Both the position numbers and the translations under genes were made by a program. The notes beneath the pieces were generated by a model. That model was not told where the DNA came from, did not search any database, and saw nothing but the letters and a program-made list of their open reading frames with translations. Source: a phage. Taken from it: a stretch of DNA of 59,621 bases. Location: the sequence record PZ049713.1, one strand, 5' to 3'. Position 1 is the first letter of the stretch. Each line of letters begins with the position of its first letter. Positions 49,620-52,010 of the stretch are shown piece by piece.

Positions 49620-50330
49620 GTGCGGCACAGCGATTGGATTGTCTTCGTAGATGAAAGCGGAGATCACAGCCTAGAATCGATTGACGATGCGTACCCAGTG
49701 TTCGTGCTGACTTTCTGCGTGATCAGCAAAGACGAATACCTGCAGAAGCTAGTGCCCCGAGTGAAGCGCCTAAAGTTCGACCTGTTTGGGCACGATAAGG
49801 TCATCCTTCACGAATCTGAGATAAACCGGAAGAAGGGCGCATTCTCTCGCATGCCGAAAGAGGATCGGGATTCGCTGATGGTCACGCTTGGAGCAATCGT
49901 TGCCGAGACACACTTTCAAATCTTCGCGATCATCATCGACAAGATTCAACACAAGCGGCGCTATTCAAAGCCTGCCCACCCATACCATCTAGCCATGCAG
50001 CTCGGGCTTGAACGCATATATGGCTTCTTGCGTAGCAAAGGACAATGCGAGCGGGACACGCACTTCATCTTTGAGGCGCGAGGAAACAAGGAGGACCTTG
50101 ACCTTGAGCTGGCCTTTAGGCGAGTTTGCGACGGAGATAATTTCGCTGGAGCTACCTACCCGTTTCAAATCGTAATTGCGGACAAAAAGACTAACTGCGA
50201 AGGCTTGCAGGTCGCCGACCTTACAGCTCGTCCAATCGGACTATCTGTGCTGAGGCCGGAACAAGAAAATCGAGCGTATGAGATTCTGCGGAAGAAGATG
50301 AATCGGTACGGAAGAAAGATCTTCCCGTAG
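49620..50330 (+). CDS. DUF3800-like protein (FVDESGD N-terminal motif), cI-co-transcribed accessory gene
   Basis: 236 aa from GTG 49620, 30 nt after the cI stop; N-terminal WIVFVDESGDH; AT-richer than flanking phage genes; strong terminator downstream. Confidence 0.55.
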   Translation: MRHSDWIVFVDESGDHSLESIDDAYPVFVLTFCVISKDEYLQKLVPRVKRLKFDLFGHDKVILHESEINRKKGAFSRMPKEDRDSLMVTLGAIVAETHFQIFAIIIDKIQHKRRYSKPAHPYHLAMQLGLERIYGFLRSKGQCERDTHFIFEARGNKEDLDLELAFRRVCDGDNFAGATYPFQIVIADKKTNCEGLQVADLTARPIGLSVLRPEQENRAYEILRKKMNRYGRKIFP

Positions 50331-50496
50331 CCCAGAAAGCGAAAAGCCCCTGAGACAAGTCCCAAGGGCTTAGCGCCGGCCGCGTAGTCGCAACCCATTT
50401 ATCGAAATTCTATTGCGAAACCTACCCCGGCCTTCACCGGATCAATCTCGCAATCCAACTATAGGACAACCTTTATCCGAATGCAATCGGACACCA

Positions 50497-50523
50497 AGCC
50501 CCGCACCACGCGGGGCTTTTTGT
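50497..50523 (+). terminator. Intrinsic terminator
   Basis: AGCCCCGC-accac-GCGGGGCT followed by TTTTT. Confidence 0.7.
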
Positions 50524-50653
50524 GTCTGCACCACCCTCCCCTACTTAGGTCTGAGCAACTTCTTTACATGTGGCAACCGGCCACCATGTTTCCTCTTGCC
50601 CGGTGAAACCCTCACAATTACTGTGTGGATATCCAGCATTAAGGAGGGCCACA

Positions 50654-50911
50654 ATGAATCGGATGCAACCTCACGCCATCACCCACCACTGCCAAGCATC
50701 GACCTATAGCCGCTTGGTGCGCCGGGTAAATCTAGCGCTGACGGCGCCAACAGCGCAGCGCGAACGCCAAGCCAATCTCAGGCCAGGCCCGGATGATCGC
50801 CCCGAAGACTGGGAGCGCCTTCTTGAGGAAATCGAACAGGCCGACAACGTGACCATGCGACGACGACCAGACGGAAGCGTCCATGTGATCTGGCGGTGCG
50901 CAAGCTGCTAG
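50654..50911 (+). CDS. Small hypothetical protein in immunity-region cassette
   Basis: 85 aa from ATG 50654, 7 nt after AAGGAGG; ORF-track frame 50570-50911. Confidence 0.5.
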   Translation: MNRMQPHAITHHCQASTYSRLVRRVNLALTAPTAQRERQANLRPGPDDRPEDWERLLEEIEQADNVTMRRRPDGSVHVIWRCASC

Positions 50912-50996
50912 CTGCATGCTTGCATTTCATGTTTGACATGCTTGCTTAGCGGTGGCCAAATGCAAGCACATAAAACTGTGCGAGGATTTTGCAAGC

Positions 50997-52010
50997 ATGA
51001 GCGAGCCAACCGGAAAGGCCAAAGGAGGAGTCGCGCGCGCCCATGCGCTAACGGCTGACGAGAGGAAGGATATCGCCAAGAAGGCTGCGGAGGCCCGTTG
51101 GGCTGCGCCAAAGGCGTTATACGTCGGAGAGCTGTCTATCGGGGAGCTAACCATCGATTGCGCAGTGCTGCCAGACGGCACGCGAGTGCTCTCGCAACGC
51201 GGAGTCGGTCGGGCGCTTGGCCGCAGCTATGGTGGCAAAGACTTCCGCGTCTCCGGCGACGAAGATGCCGGTGGGAAACTACCCTTTTTCATGAATGCAA
51301 ACACCCTAAAACCCTTTATTTCCAGTGAGTTAGCGGCGCTGGTCTCAAAGCCAATTCCGTATCGACACGAGCAAGGCGGCGGCGTGGCGCACGGTATAAG
51401 TGCAAGCGCCCTTCCCCAGATATGCGAAGTTTGGCTCAAGGCAAGGGAGGCTGGCGGGCTTACCAAGGTTCAGCTACCAATGGCGGCAAAGGCCGAAATA
51501 ATCATGCGCGGCCTGGCGCACATTGGCATCACCGCGCTTGTCGATGAAGCGACCGGTTACCAAGAGGTCCGCGACAAGCAGGCGCTCCAGGCGATCCTTG
51601 ACCAGTACCTGCGCAAGGAGCTGGCTGCATGGGCTAAGCGGTTTCCAGACGAATTCTATGCTCAGATGTTCAGGCTGAAAGGTTGGCAGCGAAAAGACCT
51701 AAGCTCGCCTTCACGGCGCCCAGGTGCTGCTGGGATGTACACCAATGATCTGGTCTACGAGCGGCTGGCTCCGAACATCCTTGCAGAGCTGGAGGCTCGC
51801 AACCCAAAGGACGCTAAAGGCAATAGGAGAGGCAAGCACCACCAGCTTCTAACCGATGACGTAGGGCACCCGGCGCTAGCGCAGCACTTGCACGCACTGA
51901 TCGCTCTAATGCGCGCCTCGCCTTCCTGGGACCAGTTCATGCTTATGGTCAACACAGCCTTCCCAAAAAAGAACGACACCCTGCTGCTGGACTTGCAGCC
52001 CTGCGACTAG
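50997..52010 (+). CDS. P63C-like phage-associated protein with N-terminal KGG...ARW basic motif
   Basis: 337 aa from ATG 50997 (GAGGA SD); N-terminal ...KAKGGVARAHALTADERKDIAKKAAEARW...; family assignment from recall, not verified. Confidence 0.45.
   Translation: MSEPTGKAKGGVARAHALTADERKDIAKKAAEARWAAPKALYVGELSIGELTIDCAVLPDGTRVLSQRGVGRALGRSYGGKDFRVSGDEDAGGKLPFFMNANTLKPFISSELAALVSKPIPYRHEQGGGVAHGISASALPQICEVWLKAREAGGLTKVQLPMAAKAEIIMRGLAHIGITALVDEATGYQEVRDKQALQAILDQYLRKELAAWAKRFPDEFYAQMFRLKGWQRKDLSSPSRRPGAAGMYTNDLVYERLAPNILAELEARNPKDAKGNRRGKHHQLLTDDVGHPALAQHLHALIALMRASPSWDQFMLMVNTAFPKKNDTLLLDLQPCD

What the first reader, a model, noticed from the sequence alone, without database searches (positions are those of the whole stretch)
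49620..52010. cI-linked accessory cassette inside the immunity region: candidate prophage-encoded defence or exclusion system
Three genes (DUF3800-like 49620-50330, small protein 50654-50911, P63C-like 50997-52010) lie on the cI strand between the cI stop and the OL/pL promoter. The first starts 30 nt after cI with no intervening terminator, so it should be expressed in lysogens. The block is visibly AT-richer than the phage backbone and is bracketed by intrinsic terminators (50497-50523, 52032-52057). In lambdoid phages this slot classically holds exclusion genes (lambda rexAB). None of the three proteins has an assigned function that I can recall.
Basis: partly seen in the sequence, partly recalled or inferred. 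Interest (0 to 1): 0.85.

Follow-up and report, generated by a model that had tools for sequence, protein, structure and literature searches.

The report
Prophage nuclease gene with partner sRNA
Right after the phage repressor gene sits an RNase H2-like nuclease gene that is always paired, across many bacterial phyla, with a tiny structured RNA gene on the opposite strand; this looks like an RNA-controlled toxin or defence module, while the two other genes of the supposed cassette are unrelated add-ons.

Summary
They are not one system. P63C never co-occurs with DUF3800 in 102 related loci. A terminator separates gene 1 from genes 2-3. Gene 2 (DUF1654) has its own conserved leader with a LexA-box-like site.

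Directly after the DUF3800 stop, on the minus strand (50400->50333), lies a ~66-nt sRNA gene with a -10 box, three helices and an intrinsic terminator. All evaluable DUF3800 genes of this subfamily, fetched by protein homology alone, carry it at their 3' end on the opposite strand. In the model search that was 96 of 97 loci; the 97th is cut off by its contig end. The loci span Proteobacteria, Chlamydiae, Verrucomicrobia and others. Covariation is strong: 98% of cells pair and 15 of 17 pairs show compensatory changes. The many G.U pairs fix the strand.

Best reading: an RNA-restrained nuclease module, toxin-antitoxin-like or abortive-infection-like. No function was tested. No Rfam 15 family matches the RNA.

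The parts
48916..49590 (+). cI-type repressor (HTH_3 + Peptidase_S24). The true start may be a downstream ATG, because an operator copy overlaps 48914-48926.
49620..50330 (+). DUF3800 protein, 236 aa, with an RNase HII-like fold. It starts 29 nt after cI with no terminator between. GC is 0.51-0.53 against a backbone of about 0.61.
50333..50400 (-). Structured sRNA gene, convergent with DUF3800. It reads 5'-AAAUG, then P1 (7 bp, ACUA loop, two near-invariant U.G pairs), then P3 (GGCG with CGCU) enclosing P2 (a 10-12 bp terminator hairpin, 50371->50344), then a U-rich tail. It ends about 3-8 nt from the DUF3800 stop codon.
   Evidence: Covariance model: 72.4 bits, E 4e-23, and the only significant match (E<0.01) in the window. 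Covariation. MFE -35.8 kcal/mol, z -5.3. Strand test 98.1% against 78.3%.
50407..50412 (-). -10 hexamer TAGAAT of the sRNA promoter. The -35 is weak in this phage. The predicted transcription start is about 50400.
   Evidence: Sequence. Position-specific enrichment of TAnnnT and TTG across 92 loci: 47/92 score at least 9 of 12, against about 4 expected.
50496..50526 (+). Intrinsic terminator that probably ends the cI-DUF3800 transcript. The DUF3800 3'UTR (50331-50495) is therefore fully complementary to the sRNA.
   Evidence: conserved in PS-1 and L018
50526..50650 (+). Leader of DUF1654, about 100% conserved in four phages. It holds a candidate promoter (TTGCCC 50596-50601, 17-nt spacer, TACTGT 50619-50624) and a LexA-box-like site CTGTGTGGATATCCAG at 50621-50636.
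   Evidence: A7. The site is unique in the window, with 0.04 expected. It matches 12/16 of the P. aeruginosa consensus (PMC13114513).
50654..50911 (+). DUF1654 small protein (85 aa), an independent unit.
   Evidence: Pfam 3.2e-17 and phrog_2707. The family is linked to cisplatin resistance and a predicted LexA regulon in P. fluorescens (bioRxiv 072470).
50997..52010 (+). P63C-domain protein (337 aa), an itinerant solitary accessory gene of unknown function.
   Evidence: Pfam 1.2e-30, phrog_2384 at 6e-122, weak Ant phrog_2899. Contexts. AF2 pLDDT 71 with no PDB fold match.
52032..52057 (+). Intrinsic terminator closing the accessory block.
52066..52119 (+). OL operators (52066-85, 52100-19) and the pL-like promoter TTGACC-17-TAAATT (52091-52119).

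Best explanation
The block is a mosaic of three independent accessory units in the cI-pL slot.

Unit 1 is a two-part protein-RNA module. The first part is an RNase H2-like DUF3800 nuclease gene, read through from the cI transcript in lysogens (inferred). The second part is a convergent ~66-nt sRNA gene with its own sigma-70 promoter and intrinsic terminator. The sRNA gene lies inside the nuclease mRNA's 3'UTR.

Shown here: the sRNA is a real structured RNA on the minus strand. It is co-inherited with this DUF3800 subfamily across many phyla. The pair lives in restriction-modification operons, prophage lysogeny modules and plasmids. The protein is never found without the RNA, whereas the RNA is sometimes found alone.

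Inferred: the abundant sRNA keeps the nuclease harmless. It could do so by binding the protein (like a type III antitoxin), by pairing with the mRNA 3'UTR (like a type I antitoxin), or both. When transcription of the module stops, for example after infection by another phage or loss of the element, the RNA decays. The freed nuclease then attacks nucleic acid, probably RNA:DNA hybrids. That would abort the infection or kill the cell that lost the element.

Unit 2 (DUF1654) is probably a LexA-repressed, damage-induced small protein. Unit 3 (P63C) is a separate accessory gene of unknown function.
For: RNA reality and strand. A stretch just 3' of the stop is invariant from Pseudomonas to Variovorax, although the proteins are only 58% identical. 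98.1% of cells pair and 15 of 17 pairs show compensatory change, with 0/500 shuffles as high; slid controls give at most 58%. A third helix, P3, covaries (GGCG/CGCU, GGCA/UGCU, GACA/UGUU) and forms in 86/87 distinct sequences. 19.9% of cells are G.U, so pairing would fall to 78% on the other strand. A positioned -10 and -35 are enriched on the sRNA strand. The MFE fold reproduces all three helices, z -5.3.

Linkage. 12/12 viral contigs holding the 26-mer have the gene adjacent. Of 80 genome loci fetched by protein homology alone, all with enough sequence carry the motif. The model finds 96 hits in 976 kb: one per DUF3800 locus, none elsewhere.

Asymmetry. An RNA-first metagenome scan gave 120 loci. 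94 have DUF3800 adjacent. 21 of the 23 evaluable loci without it carry a complete sRNA (61-83 bits). A profile search found only one gene remnant among them.

Nuclease fold and invariant acidic residues.

Context. Immediate neighbours include HsdS, HsdR, HsdM, MmeI, Eco57I and GmrSD, plus S24 repressors and integrases. A PemK toxin occupies the same slot in L107. On a Methylorubrum plasmid the pair sits next to parA.

Family links to immunity. DUF3800 is the predicted effector of type VII retrons (PMC7736814). It is also an accessory of Cas12a2/a3 and of VI-F loci (PMC10910872, PMC12669027).
Against: No toxicity, RNA-protein binding, transcription or phage-resistance test exists for this subfamily. 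There is no PADLOC hit.

JBD68 lysogens deleted for p-fimU still carry the module, yet became sensitive to all heterologous F10-like phages tested (PMC12952977).

In a Legionella Tn-seq study a strain-specific DUF3800 gene scored as essential, as antitoxins do. Its subfamily is unknown. This hints at the opposite polarity.

The -35 of the sRNA promoter is weak in this window.

The protein-never-alone pattern fits an obligatory RNA cofactor as well as an antitoxin.

Co-transcription with cI rests on the sequence only.
Confidence: 0.5

Rival explanations
1. RNA cofactor or guide model. The sRNA is not an inhibitor but an obligatory partner. It activates or targets the RNase H-fold nuclease, as omega-RNAs do for IscB and TnpB, or as guides do for Argonaute.
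Against: The RNA has no variable single-stranded segment that could serve as a programmable guide. The 5' domain is about 73% identical across phyla, and the variable part (P2) is base-paired. Intact solo sRNAs, several with good promoters, are hard to explain as cofactors of an absent protein.
Confidence: 0.17
2. Reverse polarity. The sRNA, or a transcript it controls, is the harmful component, and the DUF3800 nuclease is the protective one that degrades or processes it.
For: In a Legionella pneumophila Tn-seq study a strain-specific DUF3800 gene scored as essential, alongside antitoxin genes (bioRxiv 2020.10.01.323287).
Against: About 20 complete solo sRNA genes exist with no DUF3800 anywhere in up to 10 kb of flank. 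That would be lethal if the RNA were toxic. A strong constitutive promoter suits an antitoxin, not a toxin. The subfamily of the Legionella gene is unknown.
Confidence: 0.06
3. One reading: one three-gene defence or exclusion cassette (DUF3800 + small protein + P63C), co-transcribed with cI, analogous to rexAB.
For: The genes share a strand and lie between cI and pL. None of the three has an assigned function. DUF1654 and P63C are adjacent in two phages.
Against: There is no P63C in 102 DUF3800 loci, and DUF1654 appears in only a few Pseudomonas phages. An intrinsic terminator lies after gene 1. Genes 2-3 have a separate conserved leader with a LexA-like box. P63C occurs alone in unrelated positions. 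The close relative L018 has cI-DUF3800-DUF1654 but no P63C.
Confidence: 0.04
4. No toxin or defence role. The DUF3800 protein is a housekeeping-type RNase H for the mobile element, removing primers or R-loops or processing transcripts. The sRNA is only a cis-antisense regulator of its expression.
For: The fold is RNase HII-like. The sRNA is perfectly complementary to the 3'UTR. The module gave no protection in JBD68 lysogens against F10-like phages.
Against: A cis-antisense RNA needs no conserved sequence or structure, yet P1, the linker and P3 are conserved with covariation across phyla. The pair sits in restriction-modification operons of chromosomes that already have RNases H. Solo sRNAs persist.
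Confidence: 0.18

Closest known systems
DUF3800-associated structured RNA motifs (DUF3800-I to -XI; Weinberg et al. 2017, PMC5737381)
   Same: A conserved structured RNA encoded next to a DUF3800 gene. It can be on the opposite strand, and several of the motifs end in a Rho-independent terminator. The function is unknown.
   Different: This RNA matches no Rfam 15 family, at the gathering score or at E<=10, in the window or in ten other loci. I could not read the paper's supplement. I therefore cannot exclude that it is one of motifs II-XI that was not deposited in Rfam. New here: the three-helix anatomy, the promoter, the strict one-to-one linkage, the solo copies, and the contexts in prophage lysogeny modules and restriction-modification operons.
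Type VII retrons (RT + msr/msd ncRNA + DUF3800 effector; Mestre et al. 2020, PMC7736814)
   Same: A DUF3800 RNase H2-like protein paired with a structured non-coding RNA in a predicted defence system.
   Different: There is no reverse transcriptase here; the neighbours are cI and DUF1654. The RNA is a 66-nt terminator-containing sRNA, not msr/msd. The QxxD motif, which the retron proteins lack, is present. No PADLOC model matches.
Type III toxin-antitoxin systems (ToxIN, AbiQ/antiQ) and type I systems with 3'-overlapping antisense RNA (for example txpA/RatA); from my own knowledge
   Same: A nuclease or toxin gene with a small, strongly transcribed RNA partner. These systems protect against phage by abortive infection when the RNA decays. 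Orphan antitoxins are commoner than orphan toxins.
   Different: This is a single-copy RNA rather than a tandem repeat array upstream of the toxin. It is convergent rather than co-oriented. The protein is a 236-aa RNase H-fold enzyme, neither a ToxN/Kid-fold RNase nor a small membrane peptide.
lambda rexAB, and PrrC-type genes embedded in type I restriction-modification operons; from my own knowledge
   Same: Genomic niche. One niche is expression from the repressor transcript in lysogens, in the cI-pL slot. The other is between hsdS/M and hsdR.
   Different: There is no sequence or domain homology. The resemblance is positional only.
TPR-DUF3800 accessory proteins of Cas12a2/a3 and type VI-F CRISPR loci (PMC10910872, PMC12669027)
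   Same: A DUF3800 RNase H-fold domain associated with RNA-guided immunity.
   Different: There is no TPR domain, no cas genes and no CRISPR array here.

Membership tests
Pfam DUF3800 (PF12686) | Match above the gathering score; N-terminal DE motif and C-terminal QxxD motif | tested here: met
   63.4 bits against a cut-off of 21. VDESGDH (D11, E12) and LQVAD (Q197...D200) are invariant in 23 homologues.
Type 2 RNase H (RNase HII/H2A/HIII) | RNase H fold closest to type 2 enzymes | tested here: met
Type 2 RNase H (RNase HII/H2A/HIII) | Sequence-level membership, and a DEDD catalytic tetrad superposed on that of RNase HII | tested here: inconclusive
   There is no sequence hit to any PDB chain and no Pfam RNase_HII hit. 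Invariant acidic residues exist, but I did not superpose them residue by residue.
DUF3800-associated RNA motifs (Weinberg 2017) | Conserved structured RNA consistently encoded next to DUF3800 genes | tested here: met
   96 model hits, one per locus and none elsewhere. Covariation.
DUF3800-associated RNA motifs (Weinberg 2017) | Identity with one of the described motifs I-XI | tested here: inconclusive
   No Rfam 15 family matches. The motifs not held in Rfam could not be compared, because the supplement is not held.
Retron type VII | Adjacent reverse transcriptase and msr/msd RNA | tested here: not met
   The neighbours are cI (S24/HTH) and DUF1654. No PADLOC hit.
Type III toxin-antitoxin (ToxIN-like) | Tandem array of RNA repeats upstream of, and co-oriented with, the toxin gene | tested here: not met
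   A single sRNA copy, convergent and downstream.
Type III toxin-antitoxin (ToxIN-like) | Protein toxic alone; RNA binds and neutralises it | not testable with these tools
   Only indirect evidence: the protein is never found without the RNA, while the RNA is found alone in about 18% of copies.
Type I toxin-antitoxin | Antisense RNA complementary to the toxin mRNA | tested here: met
   The sRNA gene lies within the 3'UTR, between the stop codon (50330) and the + strand terminator (50496).
Type I toxin-antitoxin | Toxin is a small hydrophobic peptide | tested here: not met
   The protein is a 236-aa soluble RNase H-fold protein.
Known anti-phage defence systems (PADLOC-DB 2.0.0) | Match to a model of a known or candidate system | tested here: not met
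   No family matches at E<=0.01 for DUF3800, DUF1654 or P63C.
lambda RexAB-type exclusion | Homology to RexA/RexB | tested here: not met
   The Pfam hits are DUF3800, DUF1654 and P63C only. The resemblance is positional.
LexA (SOS) regulon, for the DUF1654 unit | CTG-N10-CAG box in the promoter that binds LexA | tested here: inconclusive
   CTGTGTGGATATCCAG at 50621-50636 matches 12/16 of the P. aeruginosa consensus. It is unique in the window (0.04 expected) and invariant in four phages. Binding was not tested.
Phage anti-repressor (Ant), for P63C | Full-length homology to a characterised Ant | tested here: not met
   Only the P63C domain (residues 215-311 of the 352-aa ORF 50952-52010) hits phrog_2899, at 3e-9. 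The best family is phrog_2384, of unknown function.

The most novel reading that the evidence does not exclude
The DUF3800-sRNA pair is an unrecognised, pan-bacterial class of RNA-controlled nuclease module. An RNase H2-like effector is held in check, or armed, by a dedicated convergent three-helix sRNA. In effect this would be a new toxin-antitoxin or abortive-infection type. It would also explain what the orphan DUF3800 RNA motifs described in 2017 are for. It is carried by prophages behind their repressor gene, by restriction-modification operons and by plasmids.
Probability: 0.35. Interest if true: 0.8.

Novelty: new variant of a known kind. Interest (0 to 1): 0.65.

Why it matters
DUF3800 genes and their many unrelated partner RNAs have been an open puzzle since 2017. 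The same domain appears as the predicted effector of type VII retrons and as an accessory of Cas12a2/a3 loci, yet none of the papers found in the library searched here gives it a mechanism.

This window places one such pair in a genetically tractable setting: a Pseudomonas temperate phage. A relative, JBD68, grows on PAO1, and stranded lysogen RNA-seq for it already exists.

The analysis also supplies three things an experimenter needs. The first is a precise RNA anatomy. The second is the rule that the protein is never found without the RNA. The third is the set of solo RNA copies that point to the polarity. Simple cloning and challenge experiments could now settle whether this is a new RNA-controlled toxin or defence type.

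The analysis also corrects the cassette reading. The three genes should not be cloned or deleted as a single unit.

Tried and rejected
1. Rfam 15. I searched the whole window at gathering score, 49300-52500 at E<=10, and ten other loci at E<=1. Nothing matches at the sRNA.

2. The supplement of Weinberg 2017 is not held, so the RNA could not be compared with motifs II-XI.

3. PADLOC and PHROGs give DUF3800 no function.

4. I tested the three genes as one system by co-occurrence and rejected it.

5. I expected the 933W P63C homologue to sit in the rex-like slot. It is in the nin region, so that idea was dropped.

6. The P63C structure model is only moderate (pLDDT 71). Foldseek finds nothing in the PDB at E<1, and phmmer finds no PDB sequence hit. 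Its function is left open.

7. Plus-strand RNA or a DNA site as explanations for the conserved element. Both were rejected, because about 20% of paired cells are G.U on the minus strand and a positioned promoter lies on that strand.

8. The RNA-as-toxin polarity suggested by the Legionella Tn-seq study is disfavoured by about 20 intact solo sRNAs.

9. I looked for an alternative protein partner next to the solo sRNAs. None is consistent.

10. Literature searches for functional follow-up of DUF3800, drum or skipping-rope RNAs found none.
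Full report
**1. Observation**

The window is a ~60% GC Pseudomonas-type lambdoid phage or prophage. The immunity region is clear. DnaC-like, O-like, CII/CP76 and P22_Cro genes run leftwards. A cI gene (HTH_3 + Peptidase_S24) runs rightwards at 48916-49590.

On the cI strand follow three ORFs:
- 49620-50330: Pfam DUF3800, 5e-17.
- 50654-50911: DUF1654, 3e-17.
- 50997-52010: P63C, 1e-30.

The cI-DUF3800 gap is 29 nt with no terminator-like site. 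Plus-strand terminators lie at 50496-50518 and 52032-52051. TTGACC-17-TAAATT at 52091-52119 is embedded in two copies of the 20-bp operator that also occurs between cro and cI. That confirms OL/pL.

Only the DUF3800 gene and its flank are AT-richer: GC 0.51-0.53 against about 0.61. PADLOC has no hit for any of the three proteins. The PHROG hits carry no function.

**2. The three genes are not one system**

tblastn of the four proteins against 102 DUF3800-containing loci found P63C in none. It found DUF1654 only in a few Pseudomonas phages.
- PS-1 has cI + DUF1654 but neither DUF3800 nor P63C.
- L018, whose cI is 94% identical, has cI-DUF3800-DUF1654 without P63C.
- A phage with a 99%-identical P63C (L107) has cI, then a PemK/MazF-like toxin, then DUF1654, then P63C.

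P63C homologues (more than 6,000 clusters) sit alone in varied places: the nin region of 933W, the opposite strand of the nin region in SEN34, next to the integrase in Lodos, among tail genes, and at prophage ends.

The 125 nt upstream of DUF1654 (50526-50650) are essentially identical in four phages whose flanking genes differ. They contain TTGCCC-17-TACTGT, overlapped by CTGTGTGGATATCCAG.
- This site matches 12/16 of the P. aeruginosa LexA consensus CTG-TATAA-ATATA-CAG (PMC13114513).
- It is unique in the window, with 0.04 expected by chance.
- DUF1654 genes in P. fluorescens are needed for cisplatin resistance, and close homologues are predicted to be LexA-regulated (bioRxiv 072470).

Genes 2-3 are therefore probably a damage-induced unit behind a terminator, not part of the cI transcript. 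This is an inference.

**3.

I aligned the DNA 3' of DUF3800 stop codons from this window, JBD68, P. aeruginosa Pf prophages, a Metapseudomonas prophage and Variovorax. Just past the stop codon comes a hairpin with compensatory changes and then an invariant 27-mer. The proteins are only 58-73% identical.

Three linkage tests agree:
- The exact 26-mer occurs in 12 IMG/VR contigs, each time about 40 nt after a DUF3800 gene.
- Eighty loci were fetched from GTDB genomes by protein patterns alone. They cover alpha-, beta-, gamma-, delta- and epsilon-proteobacteria, Chlamydiae, Verrucomicrobia, Nitrospirae, Acidobacteria and Planctomycetes, at 46-72% identity. All with enough sequence carry the motif at the gene's 3' end.
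- A covariance model finds exactly one copy per DUF3800 locus (96 hits in 976 kb). The copy is always on the opposite strand, and there are none elsewhere. The window's only significant match (E<0.01) is 50400->50333, at 72-73 bits.

**4. Anatomy of the sRNA (minus strand)**

- Promoter: -10 TAGAAT at 50412->50407, with a predicted start near 50400.
- 5'-AAAUG.
- P1: 7 bp, GGUUGCG/CGCGGCC, with an ACUA loop and two almost invariant U.G pairs.
- P3: GGCG pairs with CGCU in the 3' tail.
- P2: a 10-12 bp GC-rich hairpin enclosed by P3, followed by a U-rich tail. This is an intrinsic terminator. It ends a few nucleotides from the DUF3800 stop.

Covariation over 86 distinct sequences:
- 98.1% of cells pair, and 15 of 17 pairs show changes on both sides. 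No shuffle in 500 reaches this, and slid controls give at most 58%.
- P3 covaries and forms in 86/87 sequences if one bulge is allowed.
- 19.9% of paired cells are G.U. If the plus strand were the RNA, pairing would drop to 78%, and to 74% in P1.

On the sRNA strand, TAnnnT peaks 10-12 nt and TTG peaks 32-35 nt before the conserved GG. 47/92 loci score at least 9 of 12 as sigma-70 promoters, against about 4 expected. In this window the -35 is weak.

No plus-strand terminator precedes 50496. The DUF3800 3'UTR is therefore fully complementary to the sRNA. No Rfam 15 family matches.

**5. The protein**

There are 4,445 homologue clusters at E<=1e-5, and the best 120 are at least 55% identical. 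The AF2 model is confident, with pLDDT 92.5.
- Foldseek agrees.
- Invariant residues include D11, E12 (VDESGDH), D107, E152, E158, D159, D188, Q197 and D200.

This matches published statements that DUF3800 is RNase H2-like (PMC7736814, PMC10910872).

**6. Context**

Immediate neighbours of 86-88 loci are enriched for restriction-modification genes, S24 repressors and integrases. The counts are:
- HsdS: 9 upstream.
- HsdR/ResIII: 6 upstream and 6 downstream.
- HsdM: 4.
- MmeI: 5.
- GmrSD: 2, plus Eco57I-type methylases.
- S24 repressors: 6.

In phages the module follows at least five different repressor types, with gaps from -1 to 90 nt. It is 100% identical behind three of them, which points to recent exchange. 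The same placement occurs in Paracoccus phage Pkon1, with a diverged sRNA. A distant DUF3800 sits in the lysogeny module of a Latilactobacillus phage.

In P. aeruginosa the module is the terminal gene of Pf prophages, once next to a SIR2 gene. On Methylorubrum plasmid p2METDI it lies next to parA.

**7. Polarity test**

I ran an RNA-first scan of metagenomes with a 24-mer covering P1 and the linker.
- 94 have DUF3800 adjacent.
- 3 cannot be evaluated.
- 23 lack it.

Of those 23, 21 carry a complete sRNA (61-83 bits). Several of these have good promoters. A profile search of all six frames found only one gene remnant. Their neighbours are heterogeneous but typical of defence islands: Mrr, HsdS, Abi_2, RhuM, HicB and an AbiEii-like ATPase.

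So the protein is never alone, while the RNA is alone in about 18% of copies. That is the pattern of a toxin with its antitoxin, or of an enzyme with an indispensable RNA. It argues against the RNA being the toxic part.

**8. Mechanism**

The steps shown and the steps inferred are listed under the best explanation. I favour an RNA-restrained nuclease that acts as an abortive-infection or addiction module, with confidence about 0.5.

The rivals are an RNA cofactor or guide, a housekeeping RNase H with an antisense regulator, and reverse polarity.

Three points count against defence. There is no PADLOC match. No experiment has been done. JBD68 lysogens lacking p-fimU were sensitive to all heterologous F10-like phages tested (PMC12952977).

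**9. Novelty**

The association of DUF3800 genes with structured RNAs is known: eleven motifs, function unknown (PMC5737381). This RNA is not in Rfam 15. It may or may not be one of motifs II-XI.

New here are:
- the anatomy and the promoter;
- the one-to-one linkage across phyla;
- the solo copies;
- the niches in restriction-modification operons and behind prophage repressors;
- a tractable phage model.

As a candidate toxin-antitoxin or defence type it fits none of the defined classes. My verdict is a new variant of a known kind, with interest 0.65.

Noticed in passing
window 54390-54469 (+): Rfam Proteo-phage-1 RNA (RF03044), 70.2 bits against a gathering score of 42, E 1e-10. It lies in the early-left region downstream of ORF 54040-54306.
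   Followed up: no
window 50526-50650 (+): The 125-nt leader upstream of DUF1654 is about 100% identical in four phages whose flanking genes differ. It holds a LexA-box-like site, CTGTGTGGATATCCAG (50621-50636), overlapping a candidate -10.
   Followed up: partly
L107 4363-5100 (also L108): In a sister phage the slot after cI holds a solitary PemK/MazF-like toxin gene with no called antitoxin. The 318-nt gap after it shows, by eye, TTGACG-18-TATATT and a hairpin with a T run on the same strand. This may be another small RNA partner.
   Followed up: no
window 50914-50999: Between DUF1654 and P63C lie several copies of ATGCTTGC/GCAAGCAT in both orientations (50917-24, 50961-68, 50990-97). They partly resemble the GCATGCTT core of the cI operators. 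The count of the 8-mer alone is not above chance.
   Followed up: partly
window 48914-48926: An operator copy overlaps the first ATG of the cI ORF (48916). The real cI start is probably a downstream ATG (48931, 48940 or 48949).
   Followed up: no
L126, L162, L183, L217, L222, L228, L234 and others (metagenome loci): About 20 complete solo copies of the sRNA have no DUF3800 gene within the fetched flank. They often sit directly after hsdS or next to Mrr, Abi_2, RhuM or HicB genes. L198 keeps only the last 35 codons of DUF3800.
   Followed up: partly
L003-L008 (P. aeruginosa assemblies): The DUF3800-sRNA module is the terminal cargo of Pf filamentous prophages, after zot and the integrase. In L007 a SIR2_2 gene follows it.
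   Followed up: no
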